Positions 1,825-59,917 of a stretch of DNA of 64,000 nucleotides are shown here, piece after piece (positions within the stretch are counted from its first letter, which is position 1; every line of letters starts with the position of its first letter). The notes under the pieces are model-generated. The model worked only from the letters and a program-made list of their open reading frames with translations, did no database searches and was not told the DNA's origin. The DNA is from Parcubacteria group bacterium (GTDB lineage: Bacteria > Patescibacteriota > Minisyncoccia > Phycocordibacterales > DATDWN01): assembly GCA_038327915.1 (NCBI GenBank), contig JBBQLO010000001.1:20407-84406 (forward strand). The letters run 5' to 3'. Position numbers and translations under genes: made by a program.

Positions 1825-4317
1825 ATGAATTTTATCGAAATACAAAAAAATGCTCGTTCTCTCTACTACCCAGTATTTCTTTTGGAAGATACTTTTTCTC
1901 ATACCCGTCGAAAAAATGTAAGATTTTGGGTGGGTATTTTGTCTCTCGTTTTATTTGTCGTCTCGGTAGCACTTTCTGGAGTTCGGTCTGTTTTCGGCGG
2001 TTACGGTTTGCTCGGAAATGAAGTGTTTTCGTCTACAGTTATTTTTTTCTGTATCTGGATATTTATTGGATTGTTAGAGGCATTTTATTATTCGTACTTT
2101 TATATTGAATATAGCGAAAATAGTAAAAAAAAATCTTTAGAGGAAGTGGTTTTTATTGATTTTGATGTTGCCTACGCTTTTTTTCATGTTTCATCAGACG
2201 ATGTTACTGGTACATTCTTTACAAAAACTAGTGTAAAAAATAGTGGCGGAGAAATTGGTTTGGAGTTCCTCTTGCGAGCTGGAGTGTCACAGGTAGACTT
2301 CGATAGATTTATATCTACGCGCAGTGTTCTCCTAAGAGGAGATCAGGTTAATTGTGATCTCACTGAAGGTCGTGTCACTCTGACCAACTTTCTTCTCGCT
2401 TTATGCACATCTGACAAAGGTCTTGCGGATTTTCTTTTCACGTACGGTATTCAAGAAAAAGAGATTATTGGTATTGGGGAGTGGATTTCTGAGCGTCTTA
2501 TGTCTACTCAGTCGAGAAATCACTGGTGGTCGAGGGATTCTCTCAGTCGTATTCCAGGTATCGGTCAAGATTGGTCTTACGGCCAAATATATACACTTAA
2601 AAAGTACGAACGGTATCTACCAGCTGTGACGAGTACACGATATGAAGTCCATTCGTCCTATGGAGTTGATGAACTTAAAGAAATAGAAGCAGTTCTTTCT
2701 CGGAGTCGGGAGGCCAACGTCATATTGGTAGGTAATGACGAGGGAGGTAAACTTTCTCTTGTTGCACATTTACGCAATATGATTGGAGAAGGTGTAGTCC
2801 TCTCAGCACTTCGACACAAGCGTGTCATTGTTCTTGACTCGGACACACTTGTCTCCCATAATAGTTCCAAAGAACTTTTTGAAGCCGAATTTGCGAAGGT
2901 AATGAATGAATCGATTATGGCGGGCAATATTATTCTGGTCATTGAAAATTTTCCTTCACTCATCGCTTCTGCATCGCTTCTTGGTTCGGATGTGCCAACG
3001 CTTCTCGAATCATATCTCCATTCACCGAGTCTCCAAATTATTGCTCTTTCAGATATGGAACGTTTTCATGAAGTACTCGAAAAAAATACCGCACTGATGC
3101 AGTACTTTGAGTACACACTTGTTAAGGATGTAAATAATACAAATAATATAAAAGTGTTGGAGAATGAATCGGCTCAGTTTGAGTCCATACTTATTTTTAC
3201 ATATCCCGCTCTCGAAGCTATTGTTGAGTCTGCAGAAAGGTATTTTCCGAACGCTGTCATGCCTGACAAGGCTATTGATCTTCTTCTAGAAATTGTTCCC
3301 AAGCTAAAAGCAGAGGGAAGAGATTTTGTTTTCAAATCCGACATTAATACACTTGTTCAAACCAAAACTGGTATTCCAGTAGGGGAAATACATGTGGAGG
3401 AAAGAGAAAAGCTACTTCATCTTGAAGATTTGTTGCGTAAACGTATTGTTGGTCAAGAAGAAGCCATTGTCTCTGTTTCAAATGCTGTCAGGCGAGCGCG
3501 GTCTGGCGTTGTCAGTGCCGATCGTCCAATGTCTTCGTTTCTTTTTCTTGGTCCGACAGGAGTGGGAAAGACTGAAGTGACAAAAGCACTGTGCGAAGTA
3601 TTTTTTGGAGGCGACAATCATATTATGCGTCTCGATATGTCGGAATATTCGGCACACGATGCTACATCTAAACTCATTGGATCTTTCGAAAGCCGACAAG
3701 CAGGGATACTTTCCTCACTTCTTCGTGAACACCCGTACGGAGTTTTGCTTTTGGATGAATTTGAAAAAGCAAATAAAGAAGTTATGAATTTATTTTTACA
3801 AATTCTTGATGAAGGATTTTTCGCAGATCAGACAGGTAAACGAGTCAATGCTCGCAATCTAATTATTATTGCAACATCGAATGCTGGGAGTGATCTTATT
3901 TGGCAAGCTGTTAAAGCGGGAGAAGATTTGTCAGGAAGTAAAGACAAAATACTAAATAGTATTATTAACTCTGGAATGTTTAAACCAGAACTCCTCAATC
4001 GCTTCGACGGAGTCATTTTATTCCACCCACTTACAAGTGAACACGTGAGAGCTATTGCTAAAATTAAATTAGGTATTTTGCACGAACGCCTTGCTGGCAA
4101 AGGTTTGAATCTAGTTATAGACGATGCGCTAATTGATTTTGTCGCTAGTCATGGTACAGATCCAACTTTCGGTGCCAGGCCAATAAATCGTGCAATTTCT
4201 GACACTGTTGAGCAGTTGGTGGCTAAAAAAATTATCGACGGCTCTATCTCTCCTGGTTCAAAAATAGTTTTGAATACCACGGAATTAGAACAAAATGGAA
4301 TAAAAATAGGGCTGTAA
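1825..4317 (+). CDS. membrane-anchored Hsp100/Clp-family double AAA+ ATPase (ClpA/ClpB-like) with degenerate D1
   Basis: Two TM helices at the N-terminus. D1 aligns to ClpB D1 but Walker A is 'GNDEGGKLS' (Thr replaced by Leu) and Walker B is 'ILVIEN'. D2 is canonical: 'LFLGPTGVGKTE', 'VLLLDEFEKA', sensor region 'IIIATSNAGS' and 'LLNRFDGVILFHPL'. No ClpP-docking IGF-like loop and no long M-domain. Confidence 0.7.
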   Translation: MNFIEIQKNARSLYYPVFLLEDTFSHTRRKNVRFWVGILSLVLFVVSVALSGVRSVFGGYGLLGNEVFSSTVIFFCIWIFIGLLEAFYYSYFYIEYSENSKKKSLEEVVFIDFDVAYAFFHVSSDDVTGTFFTKTSVKNSGGEIGLEFLLRAGVSQVDFDRFISTRSVLLRGDQVNCDLTEGRVTLTNFLLALCTSDKGLADFLFTYGIQEKEIIGIGEWISERLMSTQSRNHWWSRDSLSRIPGIGQDWSYGQIYTLKKYERYLPAVTSTRYEVHSSYGVDELKEIEAVLSRSREANVILVGNDEGGKLSLVAHLRNMIGEGVVLSALRHKRVIVLDSDTLVSHNSSKELFEAEFAKVMNESIMAGNIILVIENFPSLIASASLLGSDVPTLLESYLHSPSLQIIALSDMERFHEVLEKNTALMQYFEYTLVKDVNNTNNIKVLENESAQFESILIFTYPALEAIVESAERYFPNAVMPDKAIDLLLEIVPKLKAEGRDFVFKSDINTLVQTKTGIPVGEIHVEEREKLLHLEDLLRKRIVGQEEAIVSVSNAVRRARSGVVSADRPMSSFLFLGPTGVGKTEVTKALCEVFFGGDNHIMRLDMSEYSAHDATSKLIGSFESRQAGILSSLLREHPYGVLLLDEFEKANKEVMNLFLQILDEGFFADQTGKRVNARNLIIIATSNAGSDLIWQAVKAGEDLSGSKDKILNSIINSGMFKPELLNRFDGVILFHPLTSEHVRAIAKIKLGILHERLAGKGLNLVIDDALIDFVASHGTDPTFGARPINRAISDTVEQLVAKKIIDGSISPGSKIVLNTTELEQNGIKIGL

Positions 4318-5453: not shown

Positions 5454-6002
5454 ATGTTAAACTATCTTATTGCAATGACTGATCTAAAAAATACTGGCTT
5501 GGTATTTTCTCAGCATGAAATTATAGAAATAGGTCTTGTTGTTTTTGAATCAGCAACGGGCAAAATACACGATACATTGGATATAAAAGTGTAACCTACT
5601 CATGTTGAAAATTCTATGTCCGAAGCTTTAGAAGTCAATGGTTACAACGAAGAGAGATGGTTGGATGCTGTCGACTTACACACAGCAATAGAAATGTACG
5701 CATCAAAAACCAAAGACTGTGTATTTTGTGCTTATAACGTTGCGTTTGATTGGGGATTTATTTCTGAAGCATTTGTAAAAACGGGAATAGTGAACCATAT
5801 GAATACAGAAGAAAATCATGATCGTCTCGACCTTCTCACTATGGCGTGGATGGCGAGTCTCAAAAATAGTGAAAAGAGAAAATTCAATTTTCAGCGTGCA
5901 TGCGCGGTTTTTGGTGTTCCAATTGAGCCTGATCCCCATACAGCACTAAATGGAGCGATGACTGCGTATGCTCTGTATAAAAAGATAAACAGTATAAAGT
6001 AG
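5454..6002 (+). pseudogene. DnaQ-like (DEDDh) 3'-5' exonuclease, disrupted by in-frame TAA and with degenerate catalytic motifs
   Basis: The frame starting at ATG 5454 (MLNYLIAMTDLKNTGL...IIEIG, an Exo I-like motif with DxK instead of DxE) hits TAA at 5592-5594. It then continues in the same frame into ORF 5616..6002, which carries Exo II 'YNVAFDWGFI' and Exo III 'HTALNGAMTAYALYKK' with the catalytic Asp replaced by Gly. Confidence 0.5.
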
Positions 6003-10972: not shown

Positions 10973-11527
10973 TTGACTAATGGTATGGAACTAAAAGCAA
11001 AAAAAAATATAGGTATTATTGTTGGATCAATCGTTGTTGTCATGATCTCAGTGGCGGTATACATTTTAGTTAAATCTTCAAAAAAAATGGAAGTAGTGGT
11101 ATTGGATCATATAGATACAACACAGACACAGGCAGGTGTGACAATTAATGCGACAAGTAGTGTTGCAACTACAGAACGTGTCAACTCACACGGATCAATG
11201 ATGGGAAGTGGGGGTGGTATGATGGCACCTACTTATAAAAACGGCACATATACTGCAGTGGGTTCGTACAATTCTCCCGGAGGTTTAGAAAAAATAAAAG
11301 TATCACTCACTCTTCAAAATGACACTGTCGTGGAGGCGATCACTGTTGGTGAAGCGTCTTCTCCAACGTCAAAAGAATATCAGGCACAGTTTATATCAGG
11401 TTTCAGGCCGAGTGTTGTTGGTAAAAATATAACAGCCATTTCTCTTGATGTTGTATCCGGATCTTCACTGACATCTCAAGGCTTTAACGATGCTGTACTA
11501 AAAATTAAGACACAAGCGAAAGGTTAG
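10973..11527 (+). CDS. membrane-anchored FMN-binding domain protein (flavinylation substrate candidate)
   Basis: N-terminal TM anchor. 'YKNGTYTAVGSYNSPGGLEKIKVSLTLQNDTVVEAITV' and 'DVVSGSSLTSQGFNDAV' match the FMN_bind domain pattern, including an [ST]G[AS][ST]-like flavin attachment motif. Confidence 0.55.
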   Translation: MTNGMELKAKKNIGIIVGSIVVVMISVAVYILVKSSKKMEVVVLDHIDTTQTQAGVTINATSSVATTERVNSHGSMMGSGGGMMAPTYKNGTYTAVGSYNSPGGLEKIKVSLTLQNDTVVEAITVGEASSPTSKEYQAQFISGFRPSVVGKNITAISLDVVSGSSLTSQGFNDAVLKIKTQAKG

Positions 11528-11536
11528 AACCGGACT

Positions 11537-12511
11537 ATGCGGTTACCAACTTTTTCATTTGAAGCCATTGGTACGCAGTGGGCAATATACATCGGAGATG
11601 AGGATGGAGAAGTTTCTTCCGATTTAAGTTTAGAATTGTCTGAAAAAATTCAAAAGAGGATCGCTGTATTTGATCTGCACTACTCGCGTTTCAGATCAGA
11701 TTCTCTCGTGTCTGAAATGTCTCGAGTTGCTGGAGTGTATACGTTGCCAGCTGATGCAGAAGCATTGTTTGACGTGTATAAGAAAACATACGACGTGACT
11801 GGGGGTCTTGTCACTCCACTCATCGGTCAGGCTCTCGTTGATCTTGGATACGATGCACAATACTCCCTTGTGCCAAAGACGGTTATCGGAAAAGTACCCC
11901 AATGGAAAGACGTTCTACACTATGATTACCCACTTCTCACTGTGAAGACTCCCGTACTTCTTGATTTTGGGGCTGCGGGTAAGGGCTATTTGATTGACAT
12001 TATAGGGAAGATACTCAAAGATAGCCTGAGAAACAGTAAAGTATTTTCTTTTACCGTCGATGCTGGTGGAGATATTTTGCACGCAAAATGCGAAAAGCAT
12101 ATTACTTCCCCTAGGCAGCGCCTAGGGGTGATGAAAATAGAAAAAAAACTACGAGTTGGACTCGAGAATCCCGAAGACACCACTCAAATAATTGGTGTGG
12201 CAGAAGTTTGCAATGAAAGTATTTGTGGCTCTGCGGGCAATCGTCGCACGTGGCAAAAGTTGGGAAACAAAGGAGAAATAAAAAAACTTACACACATTAT
12301 TCACCCCGAAACGCATTCATCTCCGAAAGGAATATCTGCCATTTGGACTATTGCTTCGACCGCGTGTGTTGCCGACATGCTCGCCACTGCACTTTCTTTT
12401 GTTTCTCCTGAAATACTCAGACCACATTTTTTATTCGAATACCTCATTCTGAACACCGACTACAGTATCAATAAATCAGAGGGTTTTGTGGTTGAATTAT
12501 TTACAGTATAA
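11537..12511 (+). CDS. apbE: FAD:protein FMN transferase, ApbE family
   Basis: ApbE blocks are present: 'AIGTQWAI', 'LLDFGAAGKGYLID', 'FTVDAGGDIL', 'GSAGNRRTW...HIIHPETHSSP' and 'ADMLATALSF'. Confidence 0.75.
   Translation: MRLPTFSFEAIGTQWAIYIGDEDGEVSSDLSLELSEKIQKRIAVFDLHYSRFRSDSLVSEMSRVAGVYTLPADAEALFDVYKKTYDVTGGLVTPLIGQALVDLGYDAQYSLVPKTVIGKVPQWKDVLHYDYPLLTVKTPVLLDFGAAGKGYLIDIIGKILKDSLRNSKVFSFTVDAGGDILHAKCEKHITSPRQRLGVMKIEKKLRVGLENPEDTTQIIGVAEVCNESICGSAGNRRTWQKLGNKGEIKKLTHIIHPETHSSPKGISAIWTIASTACVADMLATALSFVSPEILRPHFLFEYLILNTDYSINKSEGFVVELFTV
12108..12128. repeat. palindrome CCCCTAGGC-AGC-GCCTAGGGG inside apbE coding sequence
   Basis: Perfect 9-bp arms. It shares the core CCTAGGCARCGCCTAGG with the intergenic palindrome at 14541-14573. 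Confidence 0.5.
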
Positions 12512-36223: not shown

Positions 36224-36952
36224 TTATTTCGAGAGTAATGTGTCGATTGTTGACTTGAGAGCCTCATACGACTCTGCACCGACAACTGGTATTTGTGAAC
36301 CGTCTTTTGTGATAAGAACTGAGTATGGTGTTCCTTGGGCGCCCGCTTTCACCGCTTCGTCATAGCTCGCTTGAATTTTAGCTGAATATTTTCCTGAATT
36401 GAGACAGGTTGTGAAATTTTTAGTGTTGATTCCTATTGTTGAAGCAAAGGTTGTGAGTTGCGCGGGGTCGAGACCATTGTTACCCGGAGTCTGGTCGTAA
36501 ATCATGTTGAGATATTGCCAAAATTTAGCCGGACCACCTATTTCATTGACACATTCAGTTGCCTCTGCTTCTTTTGGTGCTTTGGAATGAAGTTGAGCGA
36601 TAGGAAAGTGGCGATATACCCACGCAACTTTACCATCTTTGCCATATTCGGTCATAAGCCGATTGAGCGTTGGGTTAAAAAGTTTGCAGTACGGACATTC
36701 AGTATCAGAATATTCAACAATTACAATATCTGCGTTCGGATTCCCGAGAATATGGTCGCTTGCGGATATAGAAGGAATCTGGTGAGGTGCTGTTGGTGTT
36801 GTTGTAGTTGTGACTGCTTGATTTTTGATTGTTTCTTTTTTTGCATTGAGGTTGGAAAAATATAGTGCACCAGCAATGATACCTCCGGCAACGATGATAG
36901 CAATAGGAATGGCGATTTTGTTTGTGTCCATGGTGTGTATTATACCTTTCAA
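36224..36952 (-). CDS. DsbA-like thiol:disulfide oxidoreductase (thioredoxin fold), membrane anchored
   Basis: N-terminal TM helix and a CxxC active site 'TECPYCKLF'. Confidence 0.7.
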   Translation of the reverse strand: MKGIIHTMDTNKIAIPIAIIVAGGIIAGALYFSNLNAKKETIKNQAVTTTTTPTAPHQIPSISASDHILGNPNADIVIVEYSDTECPYCKLFNPTLNRLMTEYGKDGKVAWVYRHFPIAQLHSKAPKEAEATECVNEIGGPAKFWQYLNMIYDQTPGNNGLDPAQLTTFASTIGINTKNFTTCLNSGKYSAKIQASYDEAVKAGAQGTPYSVLITKDGSQIPVVGAESYEALKSTIDTLLSK

Positions 36953-52593: not shown

Positions 52594-52821
52594 ATGATTA
52601 AATTTGTACACAAAAAACATTTTACCAAAGTAAAAGGTACTGCCAAAATAATTATCACATACAGTGCTTTTGATATTATTCTCGGTATATTTCTTTTGGT
52701 AACCAATATTATTGTCATAATGACACTCTACCACTATCAGAATCCTTCATATAAAAATGGGATGATGAATTCGCAAGTTCCATATCCGTTACGTTTGCAG
52801 ACCTCTCACTCACGTCTATAA
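52594..52821 (+). CDS. small single-TM protein (MIKFVHKKH...), paralog of 54597..54779, pilin-cassette associated
   Basis: 75 aa with one hydrophobic helix. About 60% identical over the first 50 aa to ORF 54597. Confidence 0.45.
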   Translation: MIKFVHKKHFTKVKGTAKIIITYSAFDIILGIFLLVTNIIVIMTLYHYQNPSYKNGMMNSQVPYPLRLQTSHSRL

Positions 52822-52850
52822 TGCATGGTTTTGTCTTTCATAATAAAATA

Positions 52851-53342
52851 ATGCCTCATTATAAAGACAAAGGATTCACCCTTATCGAACTTCTTGTTGT
52901 TATTTCTATTATTGGCTTACTCTCGAGTGTTGTGTTGGCTAGTCTCAATACTGCTCGTGGGAAGGCTCGAGATGCGTCGATTAAGGAAGAAGTACAACAA
53001 GTTACTCGACTTATGGCACTTAATTATAGTGAGACGGGAACATACGTCCAACTCCAAGATTGGACGTGGAAATATACTGTGGCAGATTGCGCAGCGTCCA
53101 CAGTGTCTGGTAATTATGCCAGTCAGTTTATAAATATATGTAAAAGTGTTGTTTTATTGAATGGAGGAGTAGGTGGTTTTTTCAGTGGCAACTCGGTCGA
53201 TGGTAACAATCTTTTTTCTGTTTTTGCGTATTTACCATCCGTAGGTCAGTTCTTTTGTGCTGGTAGTAGTGGTGCAAACTCTGCTGGAACACCGGGAACG
53301 TATTCGTATTGGTCTGGTCCCGGGTGTTATGGTAACCCTTAA
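52851..53342 (+). CDS. type IV pilin-like protein (prepilin)
   Basis: Class III signal 'MPHYKDKG|FTLIELLVVISIIGLLSSVVLASL', with Cys pairs near the C-terminus. Confidence 0.75.
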   Translation: MPHYKDKGFTLIELLVVISIIGLLSSVVLASLNTARGKARDASIKEEVQQVTRLMALNYSETGTYVQLQDWTWKYTVADCAASTVSGNYASQFINICKSVVLLNGGVGGFFSGNSVDGNNLFSVFAYLPSVGQFFCAGSSGANSAGTPGTYSYWSGPGCYGNP

Positions 53343-53422
53343 ACTGGGTGGTGTAAATGAAGTAGCTACTGAGCATCTTACAAAATTGAATGTGATACAA
53401 TGAAGTAAATAAAATTAACACT

Positions 53423-53713
53423 ATGTCCGACGTTCAATTTGATGAAGAAAATGCTCTAGCAAGCTATTCAAACTCTTTTCGTAGAACACAAGAGGAAACA
53501 TTGAGTACACTTCAAAACCTAGTTATTAAGACCGGATTAATTTCAAGCAAAGTTCAAGCCGATTATGTACTCGGTGCCATAGCCCTTATTTGTTTTTTAG
53601 CTACGTGTTTCGTATTTTTTTCCTCTAGTGGTATTTTATCGTCTGGTTCAGTTCCAGTTTCGAAAGAAAAGATGATAGAGGCTTTACATCAATTACCACA
53701 GGGACGCCCATAA
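53423..53713 (+). CDS. small single-TM protein, MSDVQFDE family (copy 1)
   Basis: Conserved N-terminus 'MSDVQFDEEN', one TM helix. Own TTGAAT-18-TAAAAT promoter-like sequence at 53376-53405. Confidence 0.5.
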   Translation: MSDVQFDEENALASYSNSFRRTQEETLSTLQNLVIKTGLISSKVQADYVLGAIALICFLATCFVFFSSSGILSSGSVPVSKEKMIEALHQLPQGRP

Positions 53714-53725
53714 TTTGTCCTTTAT

Positions 53726-54283
53726 ATGTTCAATATACTTAAAAATAAAATAAAGGTTACAAACAAAGGCTTCACACTTATCGAACTTTTAGTCGTCATT
53801 GCCATTATTGGTTTACTGTCGAGTGTTGTTCTTGCAAGTCTCAATACTGCTCGAGGGAAGGCTCGAGATGCCAAAAGGGTTGCCGAGTTATCTTCATTAT
53901 AGAGTGCAATTGAGTTGTACCATGACAGCACTGGTCATTATCCGAATGATGGTGGGGGTGGAACATATGCTGATTGTTGGAAGGTAGGAAGTAATTGGAT
54001 TCCTGATAGCGGTAACTATAACTGGTCGAGTACATATATTCCTAAACAACCACGCGATCCGATCGATACGTGTTGTTGGCCATGGGGTAACTGTGGAAAC
54101 CCCGGAGATGCAGGAACGTACGAATATTGGAGTGATGGCAACAAATATCTCCTTGTCGCCCGCTTGGAAAATACTTCTAGCCCGCTTCGGGCAGAAATAA
54201 CACGGATTATTGACCCAAGGAGTGGTCAACCATACGCTAACAATAATCCACTTGGAAAATATTGTTTTGTTATTAGTAATTAG
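53726..54283 (+). pseudogene. type IV pilin-like gene interrupted by in-frame TAG (53900-53902)
   Basis: 'MFNILKNKIKVTNKG|FTLIELLVVIAIIGLLSSVVLASLNTARGKARDAKRVAELSSL*SAIELYHDSTGHYP...'. The frame stays open and conserved, with 4 Cys, through to 54283. Confidence 0.55.
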
Positions 54284-54314
54284 ATATAATTGTAGTTCAT
54301 TTAAATCAACTTAT

Positions 54315-54500
54315 ATGTCCGACGTTCAATTTGATGAGCAAGATCTCGCTTCATATACTCAACCGAGGAAAATAGGAGAGAAATCTACCTTGGTGAAGTT
54401 TGTGGAGAAAATGGGTGTGCCAGAGGAGTATGTAAATTACGTATTTATTGGAGTAGTATCTGTGTGTATTTTTTTTGCGGTACTCATTGTTATTCGTTAA
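54315..54500 (+). CDS. small single-TM protein, MSDVQFDE family (copy 2, short)
   Basis: 'MSDVQFDEQDLASY...' with a C-terminal TM helix. The 5' nucleotide block is near-identical to copies 1 and 3. Confidence 0.45.
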   Translation: MSDVQFDEQDLASYTQPRKIGEKSTLVKFVEKMGVPEEYVNYVFIGVVSVCIFFAVLIVIR

Positions 54501-54596
54501 TCTAGTCACTCCTCTCCCCAAATTCCCCAATCCATTATGGATGCTATGAAGTCGGGAGGACCTGCACGTTTGAAATAATTTAAAATTTAAAATATT

Positions 54597-54779
54597 ATGA
54601 TAAAATTTATTCACAAAAAGCATCATGACGAGCTAAAAGGAACAGCGAGGATAATTATTACCTATACTCTCACTGACATTATACTGGGATTTTTTCTTTT
54701 ATTTGCCAGTTTTCTTGTTATTGTGACTTTGTATCAGTATCAATCAACCATGTATTCCTCAGGTGTCAAGGGTTCGTAA
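54597..54779 (+). CDS. small single-TM protein (MIKFIHKKH...), paralog of 52594..52821
   Basis: 60 aa, same architecture, located upstream of a pilin gene. Confidence 0.45.
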   Translation: MIKFIHKKHHDELKGTARIIITYTLTDIILGFFLLFASFLVIVTLYQYQSTMYSSGVKGS

Positions 54780-54833
54780 GAACATTTGATGAAAATGAAC
54801 GCACCTCATATGCCCACTTTTTACTAACAGACT

Positions 54834-55355
54834 ATGAATAAAAAAAATTTACATTTACGCAAAGGCTTCACCCTGATCGAACTCCTCGTGGTCATTGCTA
54901 TTATTGGTCTTTTATCGAGCGTTGTATTAGCAAGTTTGAATACTGCTCGGGGGAAGGCGAGGGATGCAATAAGAAAACAAGAAATGCGAGAAATACAAAG
55001 TGCACTCAACCTCTATTATTCTGATTTTGGTTCCTACCCACTTCCAAATCCTGGTTCGTGGGGTGGAATTAGTACAGTACCATGCGGACCAGGAAATGGA
55101 CAAACAGGCGGCGCGAATGCATATATTTTAGGGTTAACTCCAAAATACATGGGCACTCTCCCTGTTGATCCTGGTCCTGCTGGTTCTTGCAATGGTATTA
55201 TGTATGCTTCTGATGGCATAAATTATAAATTATTAGATCATCAGTCGTATGAGGGAACATATCCCACTGCTGGGCAGGAATTTTATGATCCACTTCGAAA
55301 AACATGGTCGATCATGCTTTGTAGTGGAGATTTGACAACGTGTAATACATGGTAA
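54834..55355 (+). CDS. type IV pilin-like protein (prepilin)
   Basis: 'MNKKNLHLRKG|FTLIELLVVIAIIGLLSSVVLASLNTARGKARDA' with Cys pairs in the C-terminal half. Confidence 0.75.
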   Translation: MNKKNLHLRKGFTLIELLVVIAIIGLLSSVVLASLNTARGKARDAIRKQEMREIQSALNLYYSDFGSYPLPNPGSWGGISTVPCGPGNGQTGGANAYILGLTPKYMGTLPVDPGPAGSCNGIMYASDGINYKLLDHQSYEGTYPTAGQEFYDPLRKTWSIMLCSGDLTTCNTW

Positions 55356-55379
55356 TATAATAAATGTAGTTATTTTTAT

Positions 55380-55670
55380 ATGTCCGACGTCCAATTTGAT
55401 GAAGAAAATAGTCTCGCGAGTTATACACGTTCTGCTGTGCGTAAACCTGACGAAGTAGCGGGTGGTTTTGTTATGAAAACTGTGATGAAAACAGGGTTTG
55501 TCAAGACTTCAGCACAAGCGCAATACGTACTTATGGCACTCGCAACGTTATTTTTTCTTACAGCGACGTTTATTATTTTTCACGATTCAGGAGGTAGATT
55601 TTCTTCGAAAGTTGTTCCAAGGGAGACCGTTGATGAAATGATGAAAAAAATTTCTAATCATGGCCAATAA
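55380..55670 (+). CDS. small single-TM protein, MSDVQFDE family (copy 3)
   Basis: 'MSDVQFDEENSLASY...' with a TM helix 'YVLMALATLFFLTATFIIF'. Confidence 0.5.
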   Translation: MSDVQFDEENSLASYTRSAVRKPDEVAGGFVMKTVMKTGFVKTSAQAQYVLMALATLFFLTATFIIFHDSGGRFSSKVVPRETVDEMMKKISNHGQ

Positions 55671-55683
55671 TTCGATATACTTT

Positions 55684-56202
55684 ATGAAAAAATATAATCG
55701 AGGTTTTACTCTTATCGAGCTCTTGGTCGTTATTTCAATTATTGGTTTGTTGTCGAGTGTTGTTCTCGCAAGCTTAAATACTGCGCGATCTAAAGCCCGT
55801 GATGCAAAGACTTTGGAAGATATACACCAGATTACACTTGCACTCCAGTTGGTGCGTTCAAATGATCCAAATTTTCTTTTTCCTGGAAATTCAGGGAGTT
55901 GGCAATGTCTCAAGTCAAGTGGCACATGTTGGGGTGGAGGTTATTCAGCGAACGCGGGAGTTATTACAGCGCTAGCCCCATATATGTCCAATGTTCCGAG
56001 ACCATCACCCCCATCAGGTACAGAAATGTACGATGCATATTTATATTTACCAAATTACACCGCTTATATTGGATCTTCTCCTCCCGGCACATATATTATA
56101 TATGCTCTAGAACGTCCTTTTCCAGGATCATGTAATGGATACTACGCTGGTGCATACGATGTTGGCTATTACTATTGTTACTCTTTTATTGATGGATTGT
56201 AG
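55684..56202 (+). CDS. type IV pilin-like protein (prepilin)
   Basis: 'MKKYNRG|FTLIELLVVISIIGLLSSVVLASLNTARSKARDA' and a Cys-rich C-terminus. The ORF-track start at 55660 overlaps the upstream gene. Confidence 0.7.
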   Translation: MKKYNRGFTLIELLVVISIIGLLSSVVLASLNTARSKARDAKTLEDIHQITLALQLVRSNDPNFLFPGNSGSWQCLKSSGTCWGGGYSANAGVITALAPYMSNVPRPSPPSGTEMYDAYLYLPNYTAYIGSSPPGTYIIYALERPFPGSCNGYYAGAYDVGYYYCYSFIDGL

Positions 56203-58969: not shown

Positions 58970-59917
58970 ATGGACATCGAAAAATATACACAAAATCAAA
59001 AGACTTCTTATTTGGCTGAATCCTATAAAAAACTTGATATTCAGGAAAAAGCTACTCAAGAAATGGTGGTTGCCGACCCATCGCTCCTAGAACTCGCGGC
59101 AGGTGAGATTGAATCTTTACATATGCAAAAAGAGGAAATTAGGAAACAAATGGAAAACATTTTAGCTGAGGATGAAAAAGAAGAAGAATCTCCGAATGAA
59201 GTGATACTCGAAGTGCGTGCGGGAGCTGGTGGGGAAGAAGCGTCACTTTTTGCTGAAGAGCTTGCACATATGTATAGCATGTATGCTGAGAAACGAGGGT
59301 GGTCTGTTTCTACCATCAATGAATCACGATCTGCTGTTGGTGGCTATAAAGAAGCAAGTTTTGAAATTCGCGGGAGAGATGTGTATATAGACTTACGTTA
59401 TGAAACAGGTGTACATCGTGTCCAAAGGATTCCTGCGACAGAAAAAATGGGGCGAGTTCACACGTCTACTGCGACGGTAGCAGTGTTGCCTGTACGTAAA
59501 AAAACTTCGGTTGTTATTGTCCCGAGTGACTTAGAAATCGAGACTTCTCGATCTGGCGGGGCGGGGGGACAAAATGTAAATAAAGTGGAAACAGCTGTGC
59601 GAATTGTTCACAAGCCGACAGGTATTGATGTTCGCTCGACAGCACAGAGAAGTCAGCTAAAAAATCGCGAGATGGCGATGTCTATTCTTATTGCTAAACT
59701 TGAAGAAAAAAAGGAGACGGAAGAATCGGCAAAATATTCAGCTGACCGCAAAGGTCAGATAGGCACCGCAGATCGTTCGGAGAAGATACGTACGTACAAT
59801 ATTCTCCAAGACCGCATAACGGACCACCGTATAAAAGAAAGCTGGCACAATATTGAAAAAATAATGGCAGGGGAGATAGAGCCTATTGTAACTGCCATGC
59901 GACTTGCAGACAAGTAA
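58970..59917 (+). CDS. prfA: peptide chain release factor 1
   Basis: GGQ motif '[16 protein letters not shown]' and the PxT tripeptide 'RIPATEK', which indicates RF1 rather than RF2. Confidence 0.85.

What the first reader, a model, noticed from the sequence alone, without database searches (positions are those of the whole stretch)
53726..54283. Pilin gene carrying a single in-frame amber codon but otherwise intact
Pilin copy 2 reads ...ARDAKRVAELSSL-TAG-SAIELYHDSTGHYP... and continues open, with four conserved Cys, for another 127 codons. By comparison with pilin 3 (...EIQSALNLYY...) the TAG sits where a Gln (CAG) is expected, so this is a single C-to-T change. TAG is a genuine stop in this genome, since rpoC and rpmE end in TAG. 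Possible explanations are a very recent inactivation, a silent cassette used as a recombination donor, programmed read-through, or an assembly or sequencing error.
Basis: seen in the sequence. Interest (0 to 1): 0.5.

Follow-up and report, generated by a model that had tools for sequence, protein, structure and literature searches.

The report
Pilin gene broken by amber codon
One of four neighbouring pilus-subunit genes in a small uncultured (Patescibacteria-type) bacterium carries a single, apparently recent Gln-to-stop mutation that most likely switches it off; this is an ordinary young pseudogene or null allele, not a new coding trick.

Summary
Window 53726..54283 (+) is a type IV prepilin gene with one in-frame TAG (53900..53902) after codon 58, then 126 open codons. 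The post-stop part is 70-73% identical to intact orthologues. Twenty of 28 orthologues have Gln at the stop column, so CAG>TAG is the simplest origin. TAG is a real stop here: about 9 of 54 long ORFs end in it, including this gene, rpoC and rpmE, and the window encodes an RF1 with PAT and GGQ motifs. No orthologue has a stop at this column, nothing folds downstream, and no suppressor tRNA lies in the window, so programmed read-through is unsupported. The gene keeps its start, leader and constant N-terminus, and shares no long identical tracts with its paralogues, so it is not a pilS-like silent cassette. A separate assembly (Logan, SRR19962015) reproduces the TAG. The post-stop region shows no clear decay, so the mutation is young. 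The window holds other nonsense-interrupted genes: an exonuclease (TAA at 5592, well supported) and probably the small membrane-protein gene next to the pilin (TAA at 54498). An orthologous pilin in another metagenome carries an independent TGA. Best reading: a young loss-of-function allele in a redundant pilin array. Interest is low.

The parts
53726..54283 (+). Pilin 2: a type IV prepilin gene (185 codon positions plus terminal TAG) interrupted by one amber codon. It is the only member of its conserved orthologue family in the window.
   Evidence: Translation. Pfam N_methyl PF07963 at 33.6 bits and NCBIfam TIGR02532. Intact orthologues P0001-P0020 of 172-206 aa at 55-75% identity. No second copy of the globular domain in the window.
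53900..53902 (+). The in-frame TAG (codon 59 of the prepilin, residue 44 of the mature pilin), lying inside the long N-terminal helix alpha1.
   Evidence: The column is Q in 20 of 28 orthologues. It corresponds to Q54 of P0001, inside modelled helix 13-64.
53726..53899 (+). The 58-codon product actually encoded: a 15-residue leader ending KG, then FTLIE... and 43 residues of helix alpha1, with no globular domain.
   Evidence: This 58-aa product is what gene callers recorded on both the NCBI and the Logan contig.
53903..54280 (+). The post-stop 126 codons, encoding the end of alpha1 and the Cys-rich globular domain. They are still family-like.
   Evidence: tblastn E=1e-64. The segment keeps 25 of 26 family-invariant residues. 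pN is 0.17-0.26 against pS 0.62-0.80 versus orthologues. 27 of 100,000 shuffles are stop-free.
54203..54205 (+). A CGG (Arg) codon replacing a Gly that is invariant in all 22 intact close orthologues (motif VTG.IDPR). It is the only family-invariant residue lost.
   Evidence: The other stop-bearing orthologue (L010) has Glu at the same column.
53423..53713 (+). Intact small membrane-protein gene (MSDVQFDE family, 96 aa), 12 nt upstream of pilin 2. It is the conserved partner of this pilin family.
   Evidence: A gene of the same family lies immediately upstream of the orthologous pilin in L003, L004-L007, L008 and L009. The family has 721 hits and no Pfam domain.
54315..54578 (+). Second MSDVQFDE-family gene, just downstream of pilin 2. 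It ends at TAA (54498..54500) after 61 codons, right after its membrane helix, and is followed by 25 open codons that resemble the family's C-terminal tail. Probably a second nonsense interruption.
   Evidence: The 120 best family members are 83-135 aa. The HMM score rises from 10.0 to 18.2 bits when the tail is added, and 20 of 1000 random 25-mers but 117 of 1000 shuffled tails reach that score. Every top phmmer alignment shown crosses the TAA by about 7-17 residues.
52821..53342 (+). Pilin 1, an intact paralogue whose constant N-terminus is shared and whose globular domain is unrelated.
54834..55355 (+). Pilin 3, an intact paralogue.
55660..56202 (+). Pilin 4, an intact paralogue. It overlaps the third MSDVQFDE gene (55380..55670).
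58970..59917 (+). Release factor 1 gene (PAT tripeptide and GGQ motif), the factor that reads UAG as stop.
   Evidence: Pfam PCRF plus RF-1. NCBIfam prfA 367.7 bits against prfB 223.5 bits. Sequence ...[14 protein letters not shown]... and ...[11 protein letters not shown]....

Best explanation
Pilin 2 is a genuine type IV prepilin gene that has recently acquired a nonsense mutation, most simply CAG (Gln) to TAG. It belongs to a family conserved across Parcubacteria-type Patescibacteria and is normally co-encoded with a small membrane protein just upstream.

Ribosomes terminate at codon 59 through RF1. The product would be a 58-residue prepilin (43 residues after leader cleavage) made only of the N-terminal helix. 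It has no globular, disulphide-bonded head, so it cannot form a normal pilus subunit. The gene is therefore a young null allele, a pseudogene in the making, within a tandem array of four different pilin genes. It is tolerated through redundancy, or favoured because losing a surface subunit can pay, for example in escaping a pilus-binding phage.

Shown: the stop, its position, the intact homologous continuation, TAG and RF1 acting as terminators, lack of conservation of the stop, and other nonsense-interrupted genes nearby. Inferred: the ancestral codon, the recency, the loss of function, and any selective reason.
For: - The stop is real and reproducible. Searches show it, and a Logan assembly of SRR19962015 is 100% identical over window 53074..55509. 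The NCBI 98.5-kb contig carries the same 58-aa product.
- Twenty-eight orthologues have a sense codon at this column, Q in 20 of them.
- TAG terminates about 9 of 54 long ORFs, including this gene itself.
- RF1 with PAT and GGQ motifs is encoded 5 kb away.
- The stop falls inside helix alpha1 of the modelled orthologue (pLDDT 92.3, helix 13-64), so the whole globular domain is lost.
- The post-stop region is as conserved as in intact orthologues: 1 of 26 invariant, 2 of 49 at >=90% and 7 of 66 at >=80% conserved columns changed, all within the range of the other members. This implies a short time since the mutation. Had no invariant residue been lost, neutral divergence would be bounded at about 5% (95% bound); with the one observed loss the bound is looser.
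- Other nonsense interruptions lie in the same 64 kb: a DEDDh exonuclease with TAA at 5592, where Pfam coverage grows from profile 52-164 (28 bits) to 8-164 (52 bits) on read-through and PDB alignments cross the stop, and probably the adjacent MSDVQFDE gene with TAA at 54498.
- An independent nonsense allele (TGA at a Leu/Met column) occurs in an orthologous pilin of another metagenome, L010.
- Precedent: pilus-targeting phage selects nonsense alleles of pilA and pilW in P. aeruginosa (PMC13170266).
Against: - No close strain carrying the intact CAG allele was found. The best intact relative is 75% identical, and a 40-nt pattern with N at the mutated base found nothing in metagenome contigs. 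The ancestral state and the age are therefore inferred, not observed.
- The post-stop region shows no clear decay, which is equally what a still-expressed (read-through) gene would show.
- Reads could not be inspected, so the TAG could be one allele of a mixed population.
- Only 64 kb of the genome was available, so a suppressor tRNA elsewhere cannot be excluded.
- Orthologues mostly use CAA at this column, so a CAG intermediate is assumed.
Confidence: 0.75

Rival explanations
1. The TAG is a consensus artefact or minority allele. On this view it is a sequencing or assembly error, or one allele of a strain mixture, and the dominant organism has an intact CAG gene.
For: The source is a metagenome-type assembly, and no read data could be inspected. 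The organism was found in only one run, so the two assemblies may share the same reads.
Against: - Two different assemblies agree base for base over 2,436 bp.
- The window contains two further in-frame nonsense codons and no obvious frameshifts. Random errors producing three nonsense codons would imply dozens of substitution errors in 64 kb (inference), which is not typical of short-read consensus.
- The neighbouring genes all have clean, full-length domain hits.
Confidence: 0.1
2. The gene is still expressed through the stop. Either basal near-cognate read-through (tRNA-Gln reading UAG) or a suppressor tRNA encoded elsewhere yields some full-length pilin, so the TAG acts as a strong down-regulator rather than a knock-out.
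For: - The post-stop region shows no clear decay.
- In E. coli, near-cognate decoding of UAG inserts Gln among other residues (PMC4333366), which here would restore the consensus residue.
- A minor pilin might be needed only in trace amounts (inference).
Against: - The stop is not conserved in any of 28 orthologues.
- There is no stable structure downstream: -21.8 kcal/mol, z=0.25, with 115 of 200 shuffles folding at least as well.
- No suppressor tRNA or Rfam element lies in the window.
- RF1 is intact.
- TAG also ends this same gene and about 8 others, so an efficient suppressor would extend many proteins.
Confidence: 0.08
3. The gene is a silent pilin cassette, kept as a donor for recombination into an expressed pilin gene, as with Neisseria pilS.
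For: Four pilin genes lie in tandem with an identical 35-residue constant region, an arrangement that could in principle allow recombination.
Against: - Pilin 2 has its own ATG, leader peptide and complete constant region, and sits in the conserved two-gene arrangement behind its partner gene.
- The constant regions are only 69-75% identical in DNA, with many synonymous differences and no long identical tract.
- The variable domains are unrelated.
- Orthologues elsewhere are stand-alone intact genes.
Confidence: 0.02
4. The gene is a functional split or short pilin. The 43-residue helix-only product would be assembled as a head-less pilin (compare Geobacter PilA-N), with or without the C-terminal part re-initiated at TTG 53915.
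For: - The truncated product retains the leader, the G|FTLIE processing site, Glu5 and the hydrophobic helix.
- A TTG lies 12 nt after the stop.
- Truncated pilins can have biological effects, as with PilA108 in P. aeruginosa PAO579 (PMC3684759).
Against: - The post-stop segment has no signal or membrane segment of its own, so it could not reach the outside, where its Cys residues would form disulphides.
- No orthologue is split here.
- The other nonsense allele (L010) is cut at a quite different place.
- 43 residues is shorter than the 61-residue Geobacter PilA-N (own knowledge, not tested).
Confidence: 0.03

Closest known systems
Nonsense (null) alleles of type IV pilin genes, such as phage-selected pilA E11* and pilW E129* in Pseudomonas aeruginosa (PMC13170266), and non-piliated pilE variants of Neisseria gonorrhoeae in public genomes (PMC13017665; title and start of abstract only)
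   Same: A single base change creates a premature stop in an otherwise intact pilin gene. The result is loss of that subunit. Such alleles arise readily and can be selected.
   Different: Here the allele is seen in an uncultured Patescibacteria-type genome, with no phenotype or selective agent known. The gene is one of four tandem pilins, so the consequence may be small.
Truncated PilA108 of P. aeruginosa PAO579 (PMC3684759)
   Same: A premature stop in a pilin gene leaves an N-terminal fragment that is still made.
   Different: PilA108 keeps most of the globular domain and acts through a specific C-terminal motif sensed by AlgW. The fragment here is helix-only (43 residues after processing), and no such pathway is known in this lineage.
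Neisseria pilS silent cassettes (own knowledge)
   Same: Several pilin-related sequences lie clustered in one locus, and not all are expressible.
   Different: pilS copies lack a promoter, a start codon and the constant N-terminus, and share conserved tracts with pilE for gene conversion. Pilin 2 has all the expression features and shares no long tracts.
Geobacter split pilin PilA-N / PilA-C (own knowledge)
   Same: A pilin reading frame divided into a short helix-only part and a separate globular part.
   Different: In Geobacter these are two established genes, and the C-terminal part has its own export signal. Here a bare stop codon divides the frame, and the second part has no start signal or export signal.
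Type IV pili of cultivated Patescibacteria (Saccharibacteria; PMC11623550, abstract seen)
   Same: Multiple pilin genes in an ultrasmall episymbiont lineage, where pili are thought to mediate host contact and motility.
   Different: The lineage is different (nearest orthologues are from Parcubacteria-type genomes such as Ca. Nomurabacteria). Nothing here was tested functionally.

Membership tests
Type IV pilin / prepilin (class III signal peptide) | N-terminal leader ending in Gly, followed by F-x-x-x-E and a hydrophobic stretch of about 20 residues (the prepilin peptidase cleavage and methylation motif) | tested here: met
   ...NKG|FTLIELLVVIAIIGLLSSVVLASL. Pfam PF07963 at 33.6 bits (cut-off 21.2). 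NCBIfam TIGR02532 at 35.1 bits (cut-off 16.3).
Type IV pilin / prepilin (class III signal peptide) | A long N-terminal alpha-helix packed against a globular beta-sheet head | tested here: inconclusive
   The AlphaFold2 model of the closest intact orthologue P0001 has pLDDT 92.3, a helix at 13-64 and then strands. The best Foldseek PDB hits are pilins (C. difficile PilW and PilA1, N. gonorrhoeae PilE), but only at E=0.07-1 with TM 0.3-0.5. The window protein itself could not be submitted.
Type IV pilin / prepilin (class III signal peptide) | Conserved Cys residues in the head domain (disulphide-bonded region) | tested here: met
   C84, C116, C117 and C123 are conserved in the close orthologues. 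A DsbA-like gene is present in the window at 36224..36952. The bonds themselves are not testable.
Type IV pilin / prepilin (class III signal peptide) | Prepilin peptidase and assembly ATPase/platform genes in the same genome | not testable with these tools
   None was found among the window proteins scanned. The rest of the genome is not available.
Nonsense pseudogene / null allele | An in-frame stop at a position that is a sense codon in orthologues, with homologous coding sequence continuing in frame | tested here: met
Nonsense pseudogene / null allele | The codon is read as stop by the organism | tested here: met
   TAG ends about 9 of 54 long ORFs. RF1 with PAT and GGQ motifs is present. 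The 64 kb contain only tRNA-Thr(TGT).
Nonsense pseudogene / null allele | Signs of relaxed constraint (further disabling changes, loss of conserved residues) | tested here: inconclusive
   There is no second stop or frameshift. One family-invariant Gly is replaced by Arg (54203..54205), but the overall deviation count lies within the range of intact orthologues. dS is saturated, so omega on the terminal branch cannot be measured.
Programmed stop-codon read-through / recoding | The stop codon is conserved at the site among orthologues | tested here: not met
   None of 28 orthologues has a stop there (Q20, S5, R1, A1, V1). The one other stop-bearing orthologue has TGA about 80 codons further on.
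Programmed stop-codon read-through / recoding | A stimulatory downstream RNA structure, or a dedicated suppressor tRNA, or loss of the matching release factor | tested here: not met
   The fold of 53890..53990 has z=0.25. There is no Rfam hit and no suppressor tRNA in the window. RF1 is present. The tRNA set of the rest of the genome was not testable.
Silent pilin cassette (pilS type) | Lacks a start codon, leader and constant N-terminal region | tested here: not met
   ATG at 53726, a 15-residue leader and the full constant region are present.
Silent pilin cassette (pilS type) | Shares near-identical DNA tracts with an expression locus | tested here: not met
   The longest shared block is 133 nt at 69-75% identity. 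No other copy of the variable domain lies in the window.
Split pilin (Geobacter PilA-N / PilA-C type) | The C-terminal part is a separate gene with its own start and export signal | tested here: not met
   After the TAG the first possible in-frame start is TTG at 53915. The sequence that follows (YHDSTGHYPNDGGGG...) has no hydrophobic signal.

The most novel reading that the evidence does not exclude
Nonsense codons may be a recurrent, selected off-switch for this particular conserved pilin family in Parcubacteria-type bacteria. Two unrelated genomes carry independent stops (TAG here, TGA in L010). Both have also replaced the same otherwise invariant Gly of the VTG.IDPR motif. The amber allele may still yield trace wild-type pilin, because near-cognate read-through of UAG inserts Gln, the ancestral residue. 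On this reading the allele would be a leaky, population-level way of varying the pilus surface rather than plain decay.
Probability: 0.06. Interest if true: 0.5.

Novelty: new member of a known kind. Interest (0 to 1): 0.2.

Why it matters
As it stands, the finding matters mainly for annotation. The locus should be recorded as a pilin pseudogene or nonsense allele, not as a 58-aa 'pilin' plus unannotated DNA, and not as evidence for amber recoding in this lineage.

It also illustrates birth-and-death turnover in the tandem pilin arrays of ultrasmall episymbiotic bacteria, whose pili are thought to mediate host contact. At least two and probably three genes in 64 kb are interrupted by nonsense codons.

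If the rarer reading were true, with recurrent selected and leaky nonsense alleles in one conserved pilin family, it would point to a simple route of surface variation in organisms that lack classical phase-variation machinery.

Tried and rejected
- **Search for a strain with the intact allele.** The protein search gave no relative above 75% identity. A 40-nt DNA pattern with N at the mutated base found nothing in metagenome contigs. The genome-collection scan returned only one 55%-identical Nomurabacteria locus. Ancestry and polymorphism therefore could not be observed directly.
- **dN/dS dating of the stop.** Synonymous sites are saturated against every available orthologue (pS 0.62-0.95), so only long-term purifying selection can be stated.
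- **Read-through signals.** There is no downstream structure, no Rfam family and no suppressor tRNA in the window.
- **Window-wide amber recoding.** A scan for same-frame open stretches on both sides of a stop found no other TAG-split gene. The TAG between 10973..11527 and 11537..12511 separates two distinct genes, since ApbE starts at profile position 2.
- **Gene-conversion or cassette idea.** Repeat analysis found only diverged constant regions.
- **Structure of the window protein itself.** Foldseek against the PDB gave only weak pilin matches.
- **Sample identity.** A literature search for SRR19962015 found nothing. Exact look-ups of two other window proteins found no record.
- **Tail test for the neighbouring small gene.** This gave only moderate support: 20 of 1000 random 25-mers but 117 of 1000 shuffled tails reach the observed score.

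Full report
**1. What is in the sequence**

Window 53726..54283 on the + strand translates to MFNILKNKIKVTNKGFTLIELLVVIAIIGLLSSVVLASLNTARGKARDAKRVAELSSL*SAIELYHDSTGHYP...KYCFVISN*. That is 58 sense codons, TAG at 53900..53902, 126 further sense codons, and a terminal TAG. The N-terminus is a textbook prepilin motif, with Pfam N_methyl at 33.6 bits and NCBIfam TIGR02532 at 35.1 bits.

The open continuation is not chance. Only 27 of 100,000 shuffles of the 378-nt post-stop segment lack an in-frame stop. The segment also matches orthologous pilins at tblastn E=1e-64.

**2. Genomic setting**

The window is ordinary chromosome from a 40% G+C bacterium. It carries rpoB/rpoC-sized genes, DnaG, sigma-70, HisRS, BipA, ribosomal proteins L25, L31 and S2, and other housekeeping genes. 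The homologues of its pilins come from Patescibacteria/Parcubacteria-type metagenome genomes, and the only species-representative genome hit was a Candidatus Nomurabacteria MAG.

The pilin lies in a tandem array:
- small protein MIKF-1 (52594..52821), then pilin 1 (52821..53342);
- MSDVQFDE-1 (53423..53713), then pilin 2;
- MSDVQFDE-2 (54315..), then MIKF-2 (54597..54779), then pilin 3 (54834..55355);
- MSDVQFDE-3 (55380..55670), then pilin 4 (55660..56202).

The four pilins share an identical 35-residue constant region but have unrelated head domains.

**3. Orthologues**

With Gln placed at the stop, pilin 2 finds a well-defined orthologue family. P0001-P0020 are 172-206 aa and 55-75% identical over more than 92% of the length, with more distant members down to P0028. 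All of these are uninterrupted.

At the stop column the 28 orthologues read Q (20), S (5), and R, A and V (1 each). In seven orthologous DNA loci the codon is CAA six times and CAG once.

In other genomes the orthologous pilin sits directly behind a small membrane-protein gene of the MSDVQFDE family (L003, L004-L007, L008, L009). That family is uncharacterised, with 721 detectable members and no Pfam domain. Pilin 2 is in this conserved arrangement behind an intact partner gene. It is the only copy of its head domain in the window.

**4. Is TAG a stop here?**

Yes.
- Among 54 long ORFs the terminators are TAA 40, TAG 9 and TGA 5. The TAG set includes rpoC, rpmE and pilin 2's own end.
- The window encodes a release factor whose best match is RF1 (367.7 bits against 223.5 for RF2, somewhat below NCBI's strict cut-off of 400). 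It carries the RF1 PAT tripeptide and the GGQ motif.
- The only tRNA in the 64 kb is tRNA-Thr(TGT).
- A scan for same-frame open stretches on either side of a stop found no other TAG-split gene.

**5. Consequence of the stop**

An AlphaFold2 model of the closest intact orthologue (P0001; pLDDT 92.3, pTM 0.80) has the long N-terminal helix at residues 13-64, followed by a compact head. The TAG column corresponds to Q54, inside that helix. Termination leaves a 58-residue prepilin, or 43 residues after cleavage at KG|F, with no head domain and none of the conserved Cys. Such a product cannot be a normal subunit. This step is inferred from general pilin architecture.

The Foldseek search of the model against the PDB put type IV pilins on top, but only weakly (E=0.07-1). 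The head domain is therefore not close to any solved pilin.

**6. How old is it?**

The post-stop region has no second stop and no frameshift. Leave-one-out counts at conserved columns show the window gene changed at 1 of 26 invariant, 2 of 49 at >=90% and 7 of 66 at >=80% conserved post-stop columns. These all fall inside the range of intact orthologues.

If no invariant residue had been lost, neutral divergence since inactivation would be bounded at about 5% at 95% confidence. One was in fact lost, so the bound is somewhat looser.

Against orthologues, pN is 0.17-0.26 while pS is 0.62-0.80. This shows long-term purifying selection, but synonymous sites are saturated, so the terminal branch cannot be timed. 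The one invariant residue lost is the Gly of VTG.IDPR, now Arg (CGG at 54203..54205).

**7. Is it an artefact?**

A Logan assembly of run SRR19962015 yields a 2,436-bp contig that is 100% identical to window 53074..55509, TAG included. The 58-aa product is also recorded on a 98,509-bp NCBI contig. It is not known whether the two assemblies share reads, so a read pile-up is still needed. A simple assembly error is nevertheless unlikely.

**8. Not an isolated case**

Three further observations point to ordinary nonsense mutation.

(a) Window 5454..6002 is a DEDDh (RNase_T-type) exonuclease gene interrupted by TAA at 5592..5594.
- The downstream ORF alone covers Pfam profile positions 52-164 (28.1 bits). 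The read-through product covers 8-164 (51.9 bits).
- Alignments to DinG and PolC exonuclease domains run straight across the stop.
- The Exo I motif reads D-L-K instead of D-x-E.

(b) The MSDVQFDE-2 gene immediately downstream of pilin 2 stops at TAA (54498..54500) after 61 codons, right after its membrane helix.
- The 120 best family members are 83-135 aa.
- The next 25 codons are open and align with the family's tail, including its conserved Pro.
- Every top phmmer alignment shown crosses the stop, by about 7-17 residues.
- Statistically this is only moderate: 20 of 1000 random 25-mers but 117 of 1000 shuffled tails score as well.

(c) In another metagenome contig (L010, Ga0315288_10004024) the orthologous pilin carries an independent in-frame TGA (...YWSNGQRY*IAARLEN...). 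It sits at a Leu/Met column, and the remaining 42 codons are intact. That contig otherwise uses TAA, TAG and TGA as terminators and shows no TGA-split genes.

Two stop-bearing alleles among about 30 orthologues is not a significant excess over a background pseudogene rate of a few per cent (my estimate).

Curiously, L010 has also replaced the same invariant Gly, by Glu. Given the few invariant residues each allele has lost, the chance of sharing a column is roughly 1 in 20. I record this as unexplained.

**9. Alternatives**

Programmed read-through fails its defining tests. The stop is not conserved, there is no downstream structure (z=0.25), and there is no recoding element or suppressor tRNA in the window. 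RF1 is present.

Basal near-cognate read-through cannot be excluded. It would partly restore the wild-type residue, because Gln is among the amino acids inserted at UAG in E. coli (PMC4333366). That is a general property of amber codons, not a feature of this locus.

A pilS-like silent cassette is rejected. Start, leader and constant region are present, the paralogues' constant regions are only 69-75% identical in DNA, and the variable parts are unrelated.

A Geobacter-like split pilin is rejected because the post-stop part has no start or export signal.

**10. Comparison with what is known**

Nonsense alleles of pilin genes are well known. A pilus-targeting phage selects pilA E11* and pilW E129* in P. 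aeruginosa (PMC13170266). A premature stop gives the truncated PilA108 of strain PAO579 (PMC3684759).

Pili of cultivated Patescibacteria are implicated in host association and motility (PMC11623550, abstract). Loss or variation of a subunit is therefore biologically plausible in this lineage.

**11. Verdict**

This is a real and reproducible single nonsense codon in an otherwise intact, conserved pilin gene. It is best explained as a young loss-of-function allele in a redundant tandem array, in a genome segment that carries other nonsense-interrupted genes. It is a new instance of a familiar kind of event, and interest is low (0.2). The decisive missing data are the read pile-up, the full tRNA inventory, and expression data across the stop.

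Noticed in passing
window 5454..6002 (+), TAA at 5592..5594: A DEDDh/RNase_T-type 3'-5' exonuclease gene is interrupted by an in-frame TAA. Pfam coverage grows from profile 52-164 (28 bits) to 8-164 (52 bits) when the stop is read through, and PDB alignments cross the stop (aligned to K or D). The Exo I motif reads D-L-K instead of D-x-E, so this is probably a decaying gene.
   Followed up: partly
window 54315..54578 (+), TAA at 54498..54500: The small membrane-protein gene just downstream of pilin 2 (MSDVQFDE family, copy 2) ends after 61 codons, against 83-135 aa in the 120 best family members. It is followed by 25 open codons that align with the family's C-terminal tail, so this is probably a second nonsense interruption about 600 bp downstream of the pilin's TAG. 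Statistical support is moderate.
   Followed up: yes
window 53423..53713 and 55380..55670; L003 230..553; L006 1170..1454; L008 133..423; L009 16..387: A small single-pass membrane protein (N-terminal MSD[VI]Q..E, then a QA.YVL motif before the membrane helix) lies immediately upstream of, or overlapping, a pilin gene. This forms a conserved, uncharacterised gene pair. The small-protein family has 721 detectable members, no Pfam domain, and only 'hypothetical protein' names.
   Followed up: partly
L010 2333..2872 (JGI contig Ga0315288_10004024), TGA at 2738..2740: An orthologue of pilin 2 in another metagenome has an independent in-frame TGA at a Leu/Met column and is otherwise intact. Both stop-bearing alleles have replaced the same Gly that is invariant in 22 intact orthologues (window Arg, L010 Glu). 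Unexplained.
   Followed up: partly
L010 2173..2271 and 2912..3010; 2330..2439 and 3158..3267: The TGA-bearing pilin in L010 is bracketed by a 99-nt direct repeat (91% identical) that contains the 3' end of the upstream gene. Its first 110 nt are 89% identical to those of the next pilin, which suggests a recent tandem duplication of a pilin cassette.
   Followed up: no
window 52594..52821 and 54597..54779 (+): Two paralogous small membrane proteins (MIKF[VI]HKKH...GTA[KR]IIITY...) each lie just upstream of a pilin gene (pilins 1 and 3). Neither has a Pfam hit.
   Followed up: no
window 54784..54816 (+): A 33-nt stretch between MIKF-2 and pilin 3 is 73% identical to the 5' part of the MSDVQFDE genes and translates to FDENERTSYA. 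It may be a relic of a fourth copy, or it may be chance.
   Followed up: no
window 58970..59917 (+): The release factor 1 is short (315 aa). It matches the prfA profiles only from about position 34-42 onward and scores below NCBIfam's strict cut-off (367.7 against 400 bits), although the PAT and GGQ motifs are intact.
   Followed up: partly
window 55332..55361 (+): A perfect sigma-70 consensus (TTGACA, 18 nt, TATAAT; 12 of 12 matches) overlaps the end of pilin 3, 19 nt before the third MSDVQFDE gene. A TATAAT also follows pilin 2's stop (54285..54290). This suggests that each small-protein/pilin pair is its own transcription unit.
   Followed up: no
L004/L005/L006 (e.g. L004 3689..5549): In the genomes carrying orthologue P0007, the small-protein/pilin pair lies next to dprA (DNA_processg_A), transcribed divergently. 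This hints at a link between this pilin family and DNA uptake.
   Followed up: no
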